From positions 128,001-192,000 of the forward strand of contig CAVVTZ010000009.1 of assembly GCA_963751275.1 (NCBI GenBank): a stretch of 64,000 nucleotides of DNA. The letters run 5' to 3'. The notes below the pieces were generated by a model, which did no database searches, was not told the DNA's origin, and saw only the letters and a list, made by a program, of their open reading frames with translations. The translations under genes were made by a program, and so were the position numbers. Source of the stretch: an uncultured Gemmatimonadaceae bacterium (GTDB lineage Bacteria > Gemmatimonadota > Gemmatimonadetes > Gemmatimonadales > Gemmatimonadaceae). This document shows positions 16,677-44,365 of this stretch, one piece after another (the first letter of the stretch is position 1; each line of letters begins with the position of its first letter).

Positions 16677-17135
16677 ATGAAGATCGGCATCGCCACGGAT
16701 CACGGCGGATTCCCGCTCAAGGAAGAACTGGCCGCGCGGTTGCGCGCCGCGAAGCACGAAGTGGTGGATTTCGGCGCGCACGCGCTCAACGACGGCGATG
16801 ACTATCCGGATTTCGTGATCCCGCTCGCGAACGCGGTGGTCGCGGGGCAGGTGGAGCGCGGCATCGCGTGCTGCGGCAGCGGCGTGGGCGCTTCGGTGTG
16901 CGCCAACAAGGTGCCCGGCGTCCACGCGGCGCTCATCGCCGACCACTTCTCCGCGCGCCAGGGCGTGGAGGACGACCATATGAACATCATCTGCCTGGGC
17001 GCGCGCACCGAGGGGATCGAGCTGGCGTGGGATCTCGTTCAGCAGTTCCTGGCCGCGGAGTACAGCAGCGCCGAGCGGCATCTGCGCCGGCTGGCGAAGG
17101 TCGCGAAGCTGGAAGCCAAACATTCTTCGAAGTGA
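16677..17135 (+). CDS. rpiB: Ribose-5-phosphate isomerase B (RpiB/LacA/LacB family)
   Basis: IATDHGG, DDYPD, CGSGVG, ANKVPG and RHLRR. Confidence 0.93.
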   Translation: MKIGIATDHGGFPLKEELAARLRAAKHEVVDFGAHALNDGDDYPDFVIPLANAVVAGQVERGIACCGSGVGASVCANKVPGVHAALIADHFSARQGVEDDHMNIICLGARTEGIELAWDLVQQFLAAEYSSAERHLRRLAKVAKLEAKHSSK

Positions 17136-17140
17136 CCGCC

Positions 17141-19198
17141 GTGGCTGACAAGGATATCTCGCAGATCTCGATCAATACCATCCGCACGCTCTCCATCGAT
17201 GCCGTGCAGCAGGCGAAGTCCGGGCATCCGGGAACGCCGATGGCGCTGGCGCCGTTGGTGTACGCGCTGTGGAACCGCGTGATGCGCTTCGATCCCGCGG
17301 ATCCCATCTGGCCGGATCGCGATCGCTTCGTGCTGTCGAACGGGCACGCGTCCATGCTGCTGTGGTCCGTGCTGCATCTCAGCGGCACGCGCGCCGTGAA
17401 CGCCGAGTACGAGCGGCTGGGCGATCCCGCGGTGTCGCTCGAGGACATCAAGCATTTCCGCCAGCTGGGAAGCAAGGCGCCGGGGCATCCGGAGTATCGG
17501 TATACCTCCGGCGTGGAGACGACGTCCGGCCCGCTGGGGCAGGGGATCGCGACGAGCGTCGGCATGGCGATCGCGCAGCGCTGGCTCGCGGCGCGCTACA
17601 ACAAGCCGGGCTTCGACGTGTTCGACTACGACATCTTCGCCGTGTGCGGCGATGGGTGTCTCATGGAAGGCGTCGGATCGGAGGCGGCGTCGCTCGCCGG
17701 CCATCTCGCGCTCGACAATCTCTGCTGGATCTACGACAACAACCACATCACGATCGAAGGGAACACCAACATCACCTTCACCGAGGATGTGGCGGCGCGT
17801 TTCATGGGCTATGGGTGGAACGTGCTGCGTGTGGGCGACGCGAACGACTTGGGGTTGATCGAGCGCGCGGTCGCCACGTTCAAGGGCACGAAGGGCCGGC
17901 CGACGATCGTCATTCTCGACAGTCATATCGGCTACGGTTCGCCGCACAAGCAGGACACCGCCGCCGCGCACGGCGAGCCGCTGGGCGAGGAGGAGGTGAA
18001 ACTCACGAAGCGCGCGTACGGCTGGCCCGAGGATGCGAAGTTCCTCGTGCCCGACGGTGTGCGCGAGGATTTCGCCGCGGGCGTGGGTGCGCGCGGCGCC
18101 GCGGCGCACGCGGCGTGGACGGAACTCTTCGGGCGTTACCGTACGGCGTTCCCCGCACTCGCCACCGAGATCGACCAAATGCAGCGGCGCGAGCTGCCGC
18201 CGGGATGGGACAAGAACCTCCCGGTATTCCCCGCGGACGCGAAGGGGATCGCCGGCCGCGATGCGAGCGGCAAAGTGCTCAACGTGCTCGCACAGAACGT
18301 CCCGTGGCTCCTTGGCGGATCCGCCGACCTCGGCTCGTCGAACAAGACCACGCTGCTCTTCGAGGGCGCGGGAGATCTCGAGCCGGATACGCCGGGCGGG
18401 CGCAACATGCATTTCGGCATTCGCGAGCACGCGATGGGCGCGGCGCTCAACGGCATGGCGCTCACCAAGCTGCGCGCGTTCGGCGCGACGTTCTTCATTT
18501 TCAGCGATTATTGCCGCCCCACCATCCGGCTCTCGGCGCTGATGGAATTGCCGGTGATCTGGGTGTTCACGCACGAAGCGATGAGCGACGGCGAGGACGG
18601 CCCCACGCACCAGCCGGTGGAGCAACTCGCGTCGCTGCGCGCGATGCCGGGGCTCATCCTGTTCCGCCCGGCCGACGCGAACGAAGTGGTGGAAGCGTAC
18701 CGCGTGATCATGCAGCTCCGGCACGAGCCGGCCGTGCTCGCGCTCTCGCGCCAGCCGCTGCCCACCATCGACCGCGCGAAGTACGCGAGCGCCGCCGGCG
18801 TCGCGAAGGGCGCGTACGTGCTCGCCGATGCGCCGGGCGGGAAGCCGGAGGTGATCCTGATCGCGACGGGGAGCGAAGTGGTGCTCGCGCTGCAGGCGCA
18901 CGAACAACTCACGGCGGCGGGGATCAAGTCGCGGGTGGTGTCGATGCCATCGTGGGAGTTATTCGATCATCAGACGCCGGAGTATCGAGAGCAGGTGCTG
19001 CCGCGTGCGGTGCGGGCGAGAGTTTCCATTGAGCAGGCGTCGACGATGGGATGGGAGCGTTATGTGGGGGACGGAGGGAAGATGATCGGGATGAAGACTT
19101 TTGGTGCTTCCGCTCCTCTGAAAGAGCTCGAGAAACACTTCGGGTTTGAGCCGGGGGCGATCGTCTCAGCGGCGAAATCGCTACTCGCTACGACCTAA
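17141..19198 (+). CDS. tkt: Transketolase
   Basis: GTG 17141. SGHPG, DRFVLSNGHAS, GPLGQG, GDGCLMEG, FGIREHAM, EDGPTHQP and FGASAP. Confidence 0.97.
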   Translation: MADKDISQISINTIRTLSIDAVQQAKSGHPGTPMALAPLVYALWNRVMRFDPADPIWPDRDRFVLSNGHASMLLWSVLHLSGTRAVNAEYERLGDPAVSLEDIKHFRQLGSKAPGHPEYRYTSGVETTSGPLGQGIATSVGMAIAQRWLAARYNKPGFDVFDYDIFAVCGDGCLMEGVGSEAASLAGHLALDNLCWIYDNNHITIEGNTNITFTEDVAARFMGYGWNVLRVGDANDLGLIERAVATFKGTKGRPTIVILDSHIGYGSPHKQDTAAAHGEPLGEEEVKLTKRAYGWPEDAKFLVPDGVREDFAAGVGARGAAAHAAWTELFGRYRTAFPALATEIDQMQRRELPPGWDKNLPVFPADAKGIAGRDASGKVLNVLAQNVPWLLGGSADLGSSNKTTLLFEGAGDLEPDTPGGRNMHFGIREHAMGAALNGMALTKLRAFGATFFIFSDYCRPTIRLSALMELPVIWVFTHEAMSDGEDGPTHQPVEQLASLRAMPGLILFRPADANEVVEAYRVIMQLRHEPAVLALSRQPLPTIDRAKYASAAGVAKGAYVLADAPGGKPEVILIATGSEVVLALQAHEQLTAAGIKSRVVSMPSWELFDHQTPEYREQVLPRAVRARVSIEQASTMGWERYVGDGGKMIGMKTFGASAPLKELEKHFGFEPGAIVSAAKSLLATT

Positions 19199-19209
19199 CG
19201 GCAGACGTC

Positions 19210-19726
19210 GACTGACGATTGACGACTGACGCCTGCCTCGGGCTGGCGCATGGTGCGGTATCGATGCGCAACGGATCGATGGGGCACCTATCAACGGTGG
19301 ATACATCGTTGGCGGTATGACATATCCGCCATTGCCAGATGGGCACCGTCGCTTGATCGTTTGGCAGCGCGCACTCGAACTGACGATGGAGTGCTACGCG
19401 ATTGCGAGGTTGCTCCCCGATATCGAACGCAGGGGCCTCGCTGATCAGATCCGGCGCGCAGCGGCGTCGGTGCCCGCGAACATCGCGGAAGGGAACGGGC
19501 AGTACTACTCGCGCGCGTACGGGCGACATCTATCGATCGCGCGCGGCTCCCTCATGGAATTGGACACCCACATCGAGATCGCGTTGCGCGCGGGGTACGT
19601 CAACCATGCCGCTACGGCAAAGTCGTTCACGCTCATCGATCAGGTCGGCCGCATGCTGACCCGCCTCTCCAAGGCTATCGCCCCCAGAGAGCCGAACTAG
19701 CAGGCGTCAGTCGTCAGTCGTCAGTC
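19210..19726. mobile_element. Putative cassette: four-helix-bundle gene enclosed by inverted (GACTGAC)3 heptamer arms
   Basis: Arms 19210-19236 and 19700-19726 form a 27-bp inverted repeat with 1 mismatch. Mobility is inferred; no transposase or target-site duplication is seen. Confidence 0.6.
19317..19700 (+). CDS. Four helix bundle protein (TIGR02436 / PF05635 23S rRNA intervening-sequence protein, Avd-like)
   Basis: LIVWQRA, LPDIERRGLADQIRRAAASVPANIAEG, LSIARGSLMELDTH and VGRML match the family pattern. Confidence 0.93.
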   Translation: MTYPPLPDGHRRLIVWQRALELTMECYAIARLLPDIERRGLADQIRRAAASVPANIAEGNGQYYSRAYGRHLSIARGSLMELDTHIEIALRAGYVNHAATAKSFTLIDQVGRMLTRLSKAIAPREPN

Positions 19727-19738
19727 TGCTATTCGCAG

Positions 19739-20551
19739 TTAGAAGTGAAACGCGAACGCAACCTCCGGCCCAAAGATGTTCATGTCGTAAATGAACGTGT
19801 CCGATCCCGATCCCGACGAGTAGTTCAGCCCTAGCCAGCGGTATTGAAGCGCCGTCTCGAACAGCTTGCTCCACCGGTATCCCACCGATGGCAGCACCTG
19901 ATACGTCCAGTTGTTCCCGCTCGTGCCGCCGATGTCGGAGAAGAGCACGAGATGCCAACGGTCGGCATCCACCGGCGTCCAGCGGAATCCGACCACGGGA
20001 AGGGCCCACGTCTTCTGCTTGCTGTTGCTCTGGGGGGTCGGGCCAGGCGCCAGGATGGTGATCGTCCCGCTCGCCTGGATGCTGTTCACGAGACCGCCGA
20101 CCACCGCTTCGAAGCCGTGGCTGATCTCCTTGATGGCGAAGGCCTCCGCGGCGTATTGCTTCATGGTCACGCTGCCATTCACCCAGGTTCCTCCGGGATT
20201 CACGTCCTGCTTCAGGTCCATGTAGATCTGATCCAACACGAACGCCCACTGTCCCTTTCTCGCCTGGATATAGAGCATCCCGCCGAAGTGGAGGTGCGAG
20301 AAGATGTCGCTCGGGCTCGCGTCCACGTGCAGCAGCGGCAGGTTCCCGATCCCCGTGGTCCCCTGCATCGTCGGCATCAGCAGGTACGGTGCGATGGTCC
20401 ATTGCCAATGATCGGAGTCGGCCGGCGCCATCGGCGGCGGTGCCCACGCGCCAACGGCCGGCGCGAGAGCGTAATTCGTCGTTTGTGCCGCGAGCGGCGA
20501 TGACGCCGCGATCAGGATGGCAAAGAGAGGGAATCGGCGGAAGACTTTCAT
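19739..20551 (-). CDS. Outer-membrane beta-barrel protein (hypothetical)
   Basis: Signal peptide MKVFRRFPLFAILIAASSPLAA; alternating amphipathic strands; C-terminal VAFAFHF beta-signal. Confidence 0.78.
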   Translation of the reverse strand: MKVFRRFPLFAILIAASSPLAAQTTNYALAPAVGAWAPPPMAPADSDHWQWTIAPYLLMPTMQGTTGIGNLPLLHVDASPSDIFSHLHFGGMLYIQARKGQWAFVLDQIYMDLKQDVNPGGTWVNGSVTMKQYAAEAFAIKEISHGFEAVVGGLVNSIQASGTITILAPGPTPQSNSKQKTWALPVVGFRWTPVDADRWHLVLFSDIGGTSGNNWTYQVLPSVGYRWSKLFETALQYRWLGLNYSSGSGSDTFIYDMNIFGPEVAFAFHF

Positions 20552-20621
20552 TGGCGCCTCGATGATCAAGTTGTGTCCCGTGAAGCTGCGTCGGCTGGTG
20601 TAACAGCCTGCCGTCAGGCTT

Positions 20622-21425
20622 TTAGAAGTGAAACACCGCCGCCAGCTGCGGCCCATACGTCAGCGTCCGATACTGCAGATATCCCTCATCCGTGAACGTC
20701 GGCGTCGGCGGCGAGCCGTTGATGTATTCCACGTACAGCGCCCGGTACTGCGCCGAGATCTCGAGCATCTTGTTCACCTTGTAGCCCGCGGTGGGGAGCA
20801 GCTGCCAGGTCCAGTTCTTGCCGCTCCAACCGCCGACGTCGCCGAACACGGTCACGTGCCAACGGTCGCCGTCCACCGGCGTCCAGCGTCCCGCCGCCAC
20901 GGCCGTAAGCCAGGCATGCGGGTAGTTCTCGGCCACCGGCTCTTCGACGATGACATCGCCGGTCATCTCCTCGAACGTGCCGTTGATGATGGTGCCGACC
21001 CGGTGTCCGTTGACGCCGAGCGCCACATCCCACGCCTTCGCGGCGTGCCGGAAGAGATACGCGTCGAACGCGGTCTGGTTCGTTCCGAGCGTTCCCTCCA
21101 GCGTGTTGTCGCCCACCGCCACGAGCGGATTCGGCTCGATGGTCTGGTTCAGCGAGACGTTGCTCGCATTGAGCGCGAACGACCACGCGCCGCCCCTCAC
21201 TTCGAGATAGACCCCGCCGCCGGCCTGCAGTCCCTTGAACGGCCCCGGCGAGCGGTTCACACTCGCCGCCGGCCACTCCTCGATCGCGACGGTGCCGCTC
21301 ATGCCCGCGAACATCACATAGGGCGCGATGGTCCATTCGATTGGCGCCGCCGCCGCTTGCCCTCGCGCCGAAAGGGCGGAACCGAGGATCAGGATCGCCA
21401 CGCTGCCCAACCGGAAATGTTTCAT
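20622..21425 (-). CDS. Outer-membrane beta-barrel protein, paralogue of the adjacent gene
   Basis: Signal peptide; shares WTIAPY, RWTPVDxDRWH, NWT and QYR motifs and terminal FHF with 19739..20551. Start could be 21437. Confidence 0.78.
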   Translation of the reverse strand: MKHFRLGSVAILILGSALSARGQAAAAPIEWTIAPYVMFAGMSGTVAIEEWPAASVNRSPGPFKGLQAGGGVYLEVRGGAWSFALNASNVSLNQTIEPNPLVAVGDNTLEGTLGTNQTAFDAYLFRHAAKAWDVALGVNGHRVGTIINGTFEEMTGDVIVEEPVAENYPHAWLTAVAAGRWTPVDGDRWHVTVFGDVGGWSGKNWTWQLLPTAGYKVNKMLEISAQYRALYVEYINGSPPTPTFTDEGYLQYRTLTYGPQLAAVFHF

Positions 21426-21707
21426 GTGCCTCATCATGGGAGAACGTTGCCCGATACTTCCTCCCCAGAAGATGGCACCCCGCCACCCATGATTCAAACC
21501 ACCCCGGACATTCCCTGACAAGAAACGCTATTTCTCACTTCGTCCGCCGGTCGATCCCGGAGCCATCTCTAGCTATACCCCCCGGCCGCGCCGGACTTGC
21601 AGTCCGCCGGCGACAGCCGCCAGCCCGCCGTGGCACTTGTTCTACTTGCCCTCCCACCGAACCTTGGGTACGATAGAAAAAACACCCCAGTCCTGAGGAC
21701 TGAGCAT

Positions 21708-23846: not shown

Positions 23847-24050
23847 CAACTGCTTGCACGCGGATCGCGCGGATTGCGCGGATCACGCGGTTTGCTCCAT
23901 GCACGATGAAGGCTTCTTGCCGGTGATCCAGCGGTTGTTTTTGTTGTTAACAACAGAAACGAATGCTGAACTACATCCGGGGAGCCTTCATCGCACAATG
24001 AGCATTCCGCGCGATCCGCGGATTCCGCGTCATCCGCGTGCAAGCAGTTG
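23847..24050. repeat. 204-bp fold-back palindrome with (NNCGCGGAT) nonamer stems and CAACTGC/GCAGTTG ends
   Basis: Outer arms pair over about 70 bp. The inner GTTTTTGTTGTT/AACAACAGAAAC shares the same symmetry axis (23948/23949). Confidence 0.9.
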
Positions 24051-25692: not shown

Positions 25693-25908
25693 AACTGCAT
25701 TGGACAGGATGAACATGATGGTCATGATGAACCGCAACGACGACCAACAGCGGTTGATGTTGTAACTGCGCGTGTAGTTCACAACAGCAGTGGGGTGTTG
25801 TTGGCCGTTGCCGTTCATCATGACCATCATGTTCATCCTGTCAAATGCAGTTCACCACGAACTACTTTGACATGATGACGGGATAGCGGCAGGATGATCA
25901 GGATGACT
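25693..25908. repeat. Fold-back palindrome of the GACAGGAT-GAACATGAT nonamer family plus a degenerate extra half-copy
   Basis: 25693-25852 is self-complementary (AACTGCATT.GACAGGATGAACATGATGGTCATGATGAAC arms). A partial arm follows at 25859-25908. Lies between convergent genes. Confidence 0.88.
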
Positions 25909-34206: not shown

Positions 34207-34328
34207 CAACTGCATCAGACAGGATGAACATGATGAACGTGATGTGAACGGCGGCCGGCGGGTTGAAATCAGGTCGTAGATTGCGGTTCATATCATGTCC
34301 ATCATGTTCATCCTGTCTGATGCAGTTG
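34207..34328. repeat. Fold-back palindrome of the GACAGGAT-GAACATGAT nonamer family
   Basis: 34207-34249 versus 34286-34328: 43-bp inverted repeat with 3 mismatches; ends CAACTGC/GCAGTTG. Confidence 0.92.
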
Positions 34329-41934: not shown

Positions 41935-44365
41935 ATGGAAACTCTCCTGCAGGATCTCCGCTATGCGGCGCGCGCGCTGCGGCGGAATCCGGTGTTCACG
42001 CTGGCGGCGGTGCTCACGCTCGCGATCGGCATCGGCGCGAATACGGCGGTGTTCAGCGTCGTGAATGCGGTGCTGCTGCGCGCGATGCCGTACCCCGATC
42101 CCGACCGGCTGGTGGTGATCTGGGGCACGCTCGGGCAGGAGCAACGCACGCTCATCTCGCTTCCGGACATCGTGGAGATGCGCGCGCGCAACCGGACGTT
42201 CGACGAGCTGTCGATAGTCCGCTCGCAGAGCGTGAACCTCACGGGCGTGGATGCGCCCGACCGGCTGATCGGCAGCTTCGTGAGCGCGAACGCGCTGACA
42301 GTGCTCGGGGCGACGGCCGAGCGCGGCCGGCTGTTCACGCCGGAGGAAACAGAACAGGGCAACGGTGCGGCGGTGGCGGTGCTCTCGCACGGGGCGTGGA
42401 TGACGCGCTTCGGCGGCGATCCCAACATCGTCGGCCGCTCGATCACGCTCAATGGGCGGCCGCACGTCGTGATCGGCGTTACCTCTCCGGGGTTCCGTGA
42501 TCCAATGGGCGACGACGACGTCTGGCTGCCGGTCCTGTCCGCGCCGGGCGCGAGCATGACGGAGCGCAGCGCCCCTGACAATATCTTCCGCGTGTGGAGC
42601 GTGGGCCGGATGAAGCCGGGCGTGTCGCTCGCGCAGGCCAAGGCCGACCTGGGCGCGATCGCGGCGGATCTCGCGAAGGAGTATCCGGTCACGAACGTCG
42701 GACAGGGCGTGAACATCATCTCGCTCAAGCAGACCGTGGTCGGCTCGCTGCGTCCCGTTCTGTTGACGGTGTTCGCGTTCGTGATGGTCGTGCTGCTCAT
42801 CGCGTGCGCGAATGTGGCGAATCTGCAGCTCGCCCGCGCCACCGCGCGCGAGAAGGAACTGTCCCTGCGCGCCGCCCTCGGTGCCGGCCGCGGACGCATC
42901 ATCCGCCAGCTGCTCACCGAGAGCGTATTGCTCTCCGTGCTCGGCGGCGCGCTCGGCATTCTCGTGGGCGTCTGGGCCACGCGCGCGATGGTCGCCGCCG
43001 TCCCCGGCGGCCTGCCGGGTTTCGCCGAGGTGACGCTCGACCCGCAGGTGCTGGCCTTCTCGATATTGGTGACGCTGGGTTCGGGCGTGTTGTTCGGCCT
43101 GGCCCCCGCATTGTTCGCCAGCCGCACGAACCTCCGCGGCGGCGTCGGCTCCGCCGGCTTCAGTCGTCAGTCGTCAGTCGATGGCCGCCGTTGGCATTTG
43201 AGAGATCTCCTCGTCGCCGGCCAACTCGCCCTCTGCATCGTGCTCCTCGTCGGCGCCGGCTTGCTCACGCGCAGCCTGGTCGCGCTGCGTCGAGTGGACG
43301 CCGGTTTCGACGCGCGCAACGTGCTCACCGCGGAGTTCCGGCTGCCGCGCAACAAGTACGACTCGCCGGCGAAGATCAACCAGTTCATGGCGCGCGCGCT
43401 GGCTTCGATCCGCGCGGTGCCCGGGATCAAGGATGCGGCGCTGGTGCAAGCGGTGCCGCTCAGCGGGAATTACGGACTCGTCACGTTCGAGCTGGACGGG
43501 AACGGGCCCATCGACCACACCGCCCACCGCGCTCCAGAACGTCGTGACCAATGGCTTCTTCCGGACGATGGGGATCCCGATGCACGCCGGCCGCGACTTC
43601 GATGCGCGCGACCGCATCGATGCGCCGCCCGTGGCGATCGTGAGCGAGGAATTCGCGCGCCAGGCGTGGCCAGGTGAGAATGCGATCGGGCGGCGCGTGA
43701 AGATCTTCGGTCCGCCCAATGTGTGGGTGACCGTGGTGGGCGTGGTGGGCGACGTCAAGCAGCGGTCGTTCGACGACGCGCCCCCCGGCGGCCAGATCTA
43801 CCAGCCGGTGGAGCAGGGGATCGGGATCTTCAACAGCGTGGTCGCGCGCACCGCGGGCGATCCGGATCTGCTGGCGAAGCAGCTGCGCGCCGCGATCTGG
43901 AGCGTCGATGCGGACCAGCCGGTATGGAAGGTGCGCTCGCAGGAATTCCTCGTGGAGCGCGATTTCTCGCCGCGCCGCTTCGCGCTCTCGCTCGCGGGGG
44001 TGTTCGCGCTGCTGGCGGTGATCCTCGCCGCGATCGGCGTGTACGGCGTGATGAGTTACATGCTCGCGCAGCGGACGCGCGAGCTGGGCATCCGGCTGGC
44101 GCTCGGCGCGCGGCGGTCATCGCTCGTGGGACTGGTGCTCGCGCGCGGGACGCGCGTGATCGCCGCGGCGATCGTGGTGGGCGTGATCGCGGCGTTCGCC
44201 GCGGCGCGGCTGATGCAGAGCCAGCTGTTCGGCGTGAGCGCCTCCGATCCTCTGACATTCCTCGCCGTACCGATCCTGTTGGGCGCCGTTGCACTCGTCG
44301 CCACGTATCTCCCCGCGCGGCGCGCGGCGAACGTGGATCCCATGATCGCCATCCGCTCGGAGTAA
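41935..44365 (+). CDS. ABC permease, ADOP family (3 of 7); frameshift near 43500-43520
   Basis: RBS ggagg; [13 protein letters not shown]...; continues in ORF 43433..44365 ending DPMIAIRSE. Confidence 0.9.

What the first reader, a model, noticed from the sequence alone, without database searches (positions are those of the whole stretch)
19210..19726. Avd-like four-helix-bundle gene sealed in a heptamer-array inverted repeat: candidate core of an undescribed repeat-spreading system
Seen: left arm GACTGAC-GATTGAC-GACTGAC-GCCTGC (19210-19236) and its inverse (19700-19726, starting on the last base of the stop codon) bracket a single 127-aa gene between tkt and a convergent gene. The identical array (TCAGTCG)3 recurs in-frame in a permease 24 kb away. 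Established: this family (TIGR02436/PF05635) was first found in the excised intervening sequence of 23S rRNA, and it is structurally related to Avd, the nucleic-acid-binding partner of DGR reverse transcriptases; its function outside those contexts is unknown. Inference: the gene and its hairpin form a self-contained unit (stem-loop with the ORF in the loop, like an IVS), and the protein may recognise or propagate the heptamer hairpins scattered through this window. No transposase or RT is present here, so any catalytic partner must act in trans.
Basis: partly seen in the sequence, partly recalled or inferred. Interest (0 to 1): 0.85.

Follow-up and report, generated by a model that had tools for sequence, protein, structure and literature searches.

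The report
Helix-bundle gene heading self-rewriting heptamer hairpins
A small gene of unknown function sits inside a hairpin built from 7-base repeats, and between related bacteria this unit is flipped or swapped at the same spot while many matching gene-less repeats are replaced in place, so the protein likely maintains a family of repeats the way REP-associated transposases do, though it is not a transposase of any known kind.

Summary
Observation confirmed; the unit is slightly larger (19195-19742) and its tips contain both neighbours' stop codons. The ORF is PF05635/TIGR02436, below the DGR-Avd cut-off. All 6 detected copies in this genome sit in long inverted repeats, and their arms define largely separate families of 9-48 genomic sites each, nearly all gene-less. 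At this junction one congener has the same cassette inverted; two others have a different cassette between 88-97% identical flanks. Arrays mostly keep their position while their sequence changes: 17 of 22 mapped sites carry an array in a congener, 10 with a different unit (control 1 of 57). Genomes lacking the gene are nearly array-free (1 in 267 kb versus 34 in 400 kb). No RT or Y1 transposase was found in six incomplete genomes of the genus; no target duplication. Best reading (0.5): a REPIN-RAYT-like system in which the protein likely drives DNA-templated overwriting of arms. The protein's role is untested. This scan noted the architecture before in at least 124 genomes; nine paper searches found no description beyond the Coxiella rRNA intervening sequence.

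The parts
19195..19236 (+). Left arm: CTAAC tip containing the TAA stop of the upstream transketolase-like gene (19196-19198), then about 4 GACTGAC-type heptamers
19237..19316 (+). 5' spacer before the ORF; no sigma-70-like promoter or intrinsic terminator found, so expression would likely be by read-through from the upstream operon
19317..19700 (+). 127-aa four-helix-bundle protein, PF05635 / TIGR02436; homologue of Xcc0516 (PDB 2GSC); under purifying selection (dN 0.17, dS 1.64 versus the G005 copy)
19700..19742 (-). Right arm, inverse of the left; its CTAAC tip contains the TAA stop of the convergent gene (19739-19741)
16868..19198 (+).
19739..20656 (-). Convergent host gene, 305 aa, no Pfam or NCBIfam hit; syntenic in G002, G004, G005
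43156..43191 (-). Solo arm of the same family inside a permease-like coding frame; G002 and G005 have a GGCTGTC-type arm behind the same tip, 6 nt shorter and still in frame

Best explanation
This is a gene-bearing copy of a family of heptamer-armed hairpins that is inverted or exchanged at fixed sites between related genomes, and its four-helix-bundle protein likely binds the arms and promotes their DNA-templated overwriting by host repair enzymes, working like a REPIN-RAYT system without a known transposase. Shown: architecture, arm families matched to protein clades, inversion, cassette-limited swap, in-place change of arm sequence, a gene-less hairpin at a site where relatives keep the gene, scarcity of arrays without the gene. 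Inferred steps: (1) the protein, predicted by homology to be a nucleic-acid-binding pentamer, holds an extruded arm near its AAC-containing tip; (2) a nick or 3' end there is extended on another arm as template, replacing a similar length of old sequence; (3) because the arms are inverted, copying through the loop would move or flip the gene, and loss of the loop would leave gene-less hairpins. Whether the protein itself cuts DNA is unknown.
For: 6 of 6 PF05635 hits in G000 lie in inverted repeats, scores 49-202; 30 of 31 scored congener loci score 55 or more; 41 of 74 loci from many phyla score 40 or more versus 0 of 129 controls. Arms of different paralogs pick out largely separate sets of sites and protein clades share arm types. 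At this junction G005 has the same cassette inverted and G002/G004 a different one; flanks G002-G005 are 88-97% identical (one far window 86%) while the ORFs are 63% identical, against 95-99% for two other G002-G005 cassette pairs; no 60-nt window of the cassette exceeds 77%; AU test rejects the host grouping, p = 0.023. Two more sites show opposite orientations among congeners, and G000 C11:13740-13942 is a gene-less hairpin with the same arms where G002/G004 keep the gene. Arrays keep position but change unit: 17 of 22 and 19 of 26 mapped sites have an array in G002 and G005, 10 each differing at 2 or more of 7 bases, 11 of those 20 within 6 nt in length; controls 1 of 57 and 1 of 58. Array density 0.4 versus 8.5 per 100 kb without and with the gene. 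The same same-site, different-repeat pattern is reported for REPINs (10.1101/2024.10.14.618302).
Against: No activity, binding or expression was shown. Between G002 and G005 (about 95% identical) most arrays are simply inherited: the orthologous site matches better than any own paralog in 30 of 43 and 26 of 35 cases. G000 has abundant GGGAAAC and CGGGACT arrays with no matching cassette among its detected copies (assembly 83% complete). Gene-rich genomes vary widely, and G006 (11 copies) has 1 period-7 array in 80 kb. Three of 30 best hits in relatives have no inverted repeat (scores 19-20). One paralog in G000 looks frameshifted and a seventh degenerate. The invariant residues (R47, S51, N55, A57, A75, S78, E81) match no nuclease motif I recognise. 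The AU test group was named after a first tree had been seen, and both trees were quick searches.
Confidence: 0.5

Rival explanations
1. The hairpins are host-useful RNA elements at gene ends, reshaped only by host processes (slippage, template switching between inverted arms, RecA conversion). The protein binds them as RNA or is a passenger.
For: Arm tips sit within 10 nt of a predicted stop in 11 of 33 cases versus 3% background. Positions are conserved and most arrays are inherited. Inverted repeats can flip their loop by ordinary recombination (established knowledge).
Against: Local processes do not explain many separate sites converging on a unit that matches a gene-bearing cassette of that genome (GCGGGAA in 6 of 10 changed G002 sites), swaps between unlike families, or near-absence of arrays without the gene.
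Confidence: 0.25
2. Arms are copied through RNA, DGR-style: the Avd-like protein presents the cassette transcript to a reverse transcriptase encoded elsewhere, and the cDNA overwrites target arms.
For: Weak similarity to the DGR Avd model (20.4 bits); Avd is required by the DGR RT (10.1101/2023.10.23.563531); replacement without length gain resembles retrohoming.
Against: RVT_1 found in 0 of 6 genomes of the genus and 9 of 41 relatives; not found in G021, G011, G016, G027, which are 96-100% complete with 8-13 copies.
Confidence: 0.12
3. The hairpins are ordinary MITEs moved by cut- or peel-and-paste by an undetected transposase, and the gene is cargo.
For: Terminal inverted repeats; one gene-less derivative at an orthologous site; one clean filled/empty pair between G002 and G005.
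Against: No direct repeat longer than 5 nt outside any of 37 cassettes; Y1_Tnp found in 0 of 6 genomes of the genus; inner spacers differ from site to site and many arms are solo; empty sites are rare. DDE and other transposase families were not searched.
Confidence: 0.08
4. It is mainly an RNA-level, IVS-like unit: the stem is cut by RNase III to release or destabilise the gene's transcript, and DNA turnover is incidental.
For: The Coxiella 23S IVS has a 28-bp stem with heptamer repeats around the same gene family and is cut by RNase III (PMC4990558); the predicted stem here is similar.
Against: No rRNA at 11 cassette loci scanned; it does not explain the gene-less families or their turnover. 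It may hold alongside the best explanation.
Confidence: 0.05

Closest known systems
REPIN-RAYT systems (PMC3116915; REPORTH, 10.1101/2024.10.14.618302)
   Same: A gene flanked by inverted repeats with many gene-less doublets of the same repeat; several systems per genome; repeats at conserved extragenic sites change type, 13 of 20 fully conserved sites holding a mix in P. chlororaphis.
   Different: The gene is a four-helix bundle, not an HUH/Y1 transposase; arms are tandem heptamer arrays rather than short palindromic REPs; the gene itself flips and is swapped; solo arms are common, one in a coding frame.
ORF-bearing 23S rRNA intervening sequences (Coxiella burnetii IVS with S23p, PMC4990558)
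   Same: Same protein family, in the loop of a stem of about 28 bp that includes tandem heptamers.
   Different: Here between protein genes, not in rRNA; accompanied by genome-wide gene-less relatives; RNase III processing not tested.
DGR accessory protein Avd
   Same: Reported structural likeness between Avd and PF05635 (PMC10053308); templated replacement of one repeat by another.
   Different: 20.4 bits against a cut-off of 80; no RT; no template/variable repeat pair was sought or seen.
Unexplained prokaryotic heptamer repeats (TAACTGA arrays, PMC4679880)
   Same: Short intergenic period-7 arrays that often overlap stop codons.
   Different: That paper proposes regulation and states no mechanism of transmission is evident; four-helix, S23 and intervening occur 0 times in its main text.
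MITEs / non-autonomous IS derivatives (recalled)
   Same: Terminal inverted repeats; internal-deletion derivatives.
   Different: No target duplication, no transposase found, variable spacers, replacement in place.

Membership tests
PF05635 / TIGR02436 four-helix-bundle protein | Score above curated cut-off | tested here: met
   110.6 bits versus 33.8; 104 versus 24
DGR | Avd equivalog score above cut-off | tested here: not met
   NF033474 20.4 bits versus 80
DGR | Cognate reverse transcriptase | tested here: not met
   No RVT_1 match in G000 (83% complete) or 5 congeners
DGR | Template/variable repeat pair with adenine-specific changes | not tested
   Not searched for; no long direct repeat in 18500-20500
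23S rRNA intervening sequence | Lies within an rRNA gene | tested here: not met
   No rRNA match in 11 cassette loci including this one
23S rRNA intervening sequence | ORF in the loop of a terminal stem | tested here: met
23S rRNA intervening sequence | Excised from RNA by RNase III | not testable with these tools
   No RNA run listed
REPIN-RAYT | Y1 (HUH) transposase gene flanked by the repeats | tested here: not met
   No PF01797 match in G000 or 5 congeners; the flanked gene is PF05635
REPIN-RAYT | Gene-less inverted doublets of the repeat that flanks the gene | tested here: met
   for this family 6 of 34 sites have both strands, the rest solo or with a weak partner
REPIN-RAYT | Repeat type at conserved sites changes between genomes | tested here: met
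IS / MITE | Target-site duplication | tested here: not met
   Longest direct repeat outside the arms 2-5 nt in 37 cassettes; tips are imprecisely defined
IS / MITE | Empty site at the orthologous locus | tested here: inconclusive
   tkt junction filled in 3 of 3 congeners; one clean empty site among 20 mapped G002 hairpins
IS / MITE | DDE or other transposase in trans | not tested
   Only Y1_Tnp and RVT_1 were searched

The most novel reading that the evidence does not exclude
The four-helix-bundle family is itself the mobilising enzyme of a widespread class of selfish elements: each protein clade recognises its own heptamer arm and rewrites, flips and exchanges hairpins in place with no transposase or reverse transcriptase. 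GxxExxY nucleases would do the same for 9-mer hairpins. This would explain the long-noted excess of period-7 repeats in prokaryotes and give a natural short-template DNA-overwriting activity ancestral to DGR Avd.
Probability: 0.3. Interest if true: 0.92.

Novelty: new variant of a known kind. Interest (0 to 1): 0.75.

Why it matters
It ties a very large protein family of unknown function to the unexplained heptamer repeats of bacterial genomes and gives a direct assay: defined cognate protein-arm pairs, natural flipped and swapped alleles of one junction, and a predicted outcome (overwriting without length gain). If the protein is active alone, it is a new kind of repeat-mobilising enzyme and a clue to the origin of the DGR accessory protein. 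The arms also supply stop codons and rewrite coding segments, so they shape gene ends across many phyla.

Tried and rejected
Sequencing runs: no RNA holder listed; contigs of four DNA runs covered only short pieces and none spanned the junction, so nothing follows on expression or excision. Structure prediction was submitted and had not finished at the last collection, so no model, fold search or mapping of conserved residues was possible. Promoter and terminator scan found none. My simple gene caller missed the known tkt stop, so 11 of 33 is a lower bound. The careful tree did not finish; quick trees were used. Chance, DGR membership, rRNA IVS membership and a classical IS were considered and rejected as given in the membership table. 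Genome-wide homogenisation of all arms to the current cassette was tested and not supported between G002 and G005. Nine paper searches found no description of the gene-plus-heptamer-arm system outside the rRNA IVS; the library lacks most subscription papers, and no supplements were read.

Full report
Observation. The arms 19210-19236 and 19700-19726 are 27 nt and 96% complementary, each a period-7 array, around one 127-aa ORF at 19317-19700. Nine of 3000 random positions with the same geometry score as high, and the RNA folds at z = -5.05. Pairing continues imperfectly to CTAAC tips at 19195-19199 and 19738-19742, which contain the stop codons of both neighbours. The array at 43160 is in frame in a permease-like ORF and carries the same tip, so it is a solo arm.

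Protein. It is PF05635 (110.6 bits) and TIGR02436 (104 bits), and scores 20.4 against the Avd cut-off of 80. The closest solved structure is Xcc0516, 2GSC, described as a pentamer in PMC4990558 (passages). In 108 aligned sequences (the query and 107 of the 120 listed homologues) R47, S51, N55, A57, A75, S78 and E81 are invariant. Against the G005 copy dN is 0.17 and dS 1.64, near saturation. No structure model was obtained.

Own genome (G000, 83% complete). Exact period-7 arrays number 227 against 87 for period 6 and 0 for period 8. All 6 PF05635 hits lie in inverted repeats, scores 49-202; a seventh, degenerate copy does too. There are 303 hairpins with loops under 150 nt and score 52 or more (the middle of that output was cut). 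Arms of the seven cassettes and two GxxExxY genes hit 249 merged sites, assigned 9-56 per query and mostly to one family only; this cassette's arms hit 24 sites, none shared, two being its own arms. A profile widened this to 71 hits; the 41 strongest fall in 34 sites, 6 with both strands. Tips lie within 10 nt of a predicted stop in 11 of 33 cases against 3%. No RVT_1 or Y1_Tnp match was found.

This junction in relatives. It is syntenic in G002, G004 and G005 and filled in all three. G005 holds the same cassette type inverted, beside a short remnant of another arm; G002 and G004 hold a different cassette. G005 flanks are 88-97% identical to G002 (one far window 86%) and 75-84% to G000, yet its ORF is 76% identical to G000's and 63% to G002's, while two other G002-G005 cassette pairs are 95% and 99% identical. 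The tree groups G005 with G000 (SH-aLRT 98) and the AU test rejects the host grouping at p = 0.023, with the caveat that the group was named after a first tree. A second site (C9:82.5k) shows the same split and 63-59% level divergence.

Other cassettes in the genus. Of 37 congener matches I examined 32; 31 could be scored and 30 have inverted repeats of 55 or more. Protein clades share arm types (by inspection). Two further sites have opposite orientations among congeners; at one, G000 has a gene-less hairpin with the same arms; at two others G000 has an element of a different family.

Turnover in place. In 400 kb each of G002 and G005, 20 of 21 G002 hairpins mapped: 17 same, 2 different, 1 empty; in reverse 23 of 25 mapped: 18 same, 4 different, 1 without a scored hairpin. 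Against G000, 12 of 19 and 11 of 21 were different. Of 192 G000 arrays, 22 and 26 mapped into the fetched stretches of G002 and G005; 17 and 19 had an array at the orthologous place (controls 1 of 57, 1 of 58), 10 each with a unit differing at 2 or more bases, and 11 of those 20 within 6 nt in length; one of the G005 ten is this cassette. For this family, all 8 other sites mapped to G002 carry an arm there, 5 of another family by eye. Against a sweeping rewrite, the orthologous site was the better match in 30 of 43 and 26 of 35 arrays between G002 and G005.

Wider pattern. In relatives 22 of 30 best hits have inverted repeats of 40 or more versus 2 of 108 controls; three have none (one of the 30 is a G000 paralog). 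In 80 loci from many phyla, 74 were scorable: 41 have such repeats versus 0 of 129 controls, and 45 and 44 have period-7 arrays upstream and downstream versus 9 of 129. Five genomes without the gene gave 1 array in 267 kb; five with 9-13 copies gave 34 in 400 kb, ranging from 1 to 18 per 80 kb; kin are not independent and the samples are small. RVT_1 was found in 9 of 41 and Y1_Tnp in 11 of 41 genomes, in none of the six of this genus, and neither in G021. The tallies over 41 genomes and the control include G012, which is unpublished; no conclusion depends on it.

Mechanism. Shown are linkage of gene and arms, inversion, cassette-limited exchange, in-place change of units and gene loss to a hairpin. 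Inferred is that the protein binds arms and promotes DNA-templated overwriting by host enzymes (0.5). Rivals are host-only processes acting on useful hairpins (0.25), an RNA route with an RT in trans (0.12), conventional MITE transposition (0.08) and a purely RNA-level IVS role (0.05).

Known systems. [quoted passage not shown] It is not a member, since the gene is not a Y1 transposase. The Coxiella IVS has the same gene in a 28-bp stem with heptamers (PMC4990558, passages), but no rRNA lies at 11 loci scanned here. PMC10053308 and 10.1101/2023.10.23.563531 (passages) give the Avd likeness. PMC4679880 (passages) describes heptamer arrays with no evident mechanism. Nine searches found no description of the system; supplements were not read and could bear on this.

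Earlier notes. This scan recorded the architecture in 127 findings from at least 124 genomes, including another paralog of this genome, and two notes use the word overwritten for gene starts. These are unchecked leads. What this locus adds is a three-state junction and counts of in-place replacement at orthologous sites. Verdict: real, part of an apparently undescribed system, mechanism indirect; interest 0.75.

Noticed in passing
G000 C7:943212-943673 and C7:952020-952538; window 23847-24050, 25693-25852, 34207-34328: A parallel 9-mer system: 2 of 3 GxxExxY (PF13366) genes lie in 9-mer inverted repeats whose arms hit 74 merged sites; three 9-mer hairpins differ in both arms between G002 and G005 at the same sites.
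   Followed up: partly
G000 C2:51721-52260: Tandem run of 9-mer hairpins with a period near 147 nt, reminiscent of BIME mosaics (comparison recalled).
   Followed up: no
G000 C9:285195-285829 and C2:57248-58048: Two cassettes whose four-helix-bundle ORF looks frameshifted or degenerate while the arms stay intact.
   Followed up: partly
L088:3119-3189 (G002) versus L111 (G005): The one clean filled/empty pair; the empty allele holds a tiny residual stem-loop, either a target or an excision scar.
   Followed up: no
L160-L239: Upstream arms are mostly G-rich on the sense strand and downstream arms C-rich across phyla, by eye; in the genus 54 of 74 arms have G over C on the tip-to-loop strand and 36 of 74 have an AAC tip motif versus 7% background.
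   Followed up: partly
G006 (L148-L151): A genome with 11 copies of the gene shows 5 period-8 arrays and only 1 period-7 array in 80 kb, hinting at an octamer variant.
   Followed up: no
G000 C9:120477-120831, C6:7963-8350, C7:978918-979255: Another abundant long inverted-repeat family without clear periodicity and with no gene assigned.
   Followed up: no
window 19739-21521: Two tandem, related 300-aa genes with no Pfam or NCBIfam hit, ending in Phe like outer-membrane barrels (barrel reading recalled).
   Followed up: no
L051 (G002 C26), also L053, L061, L069: A cassette lies next to a tRNA gene in L051; the others share its flanks.
   Followed up: no
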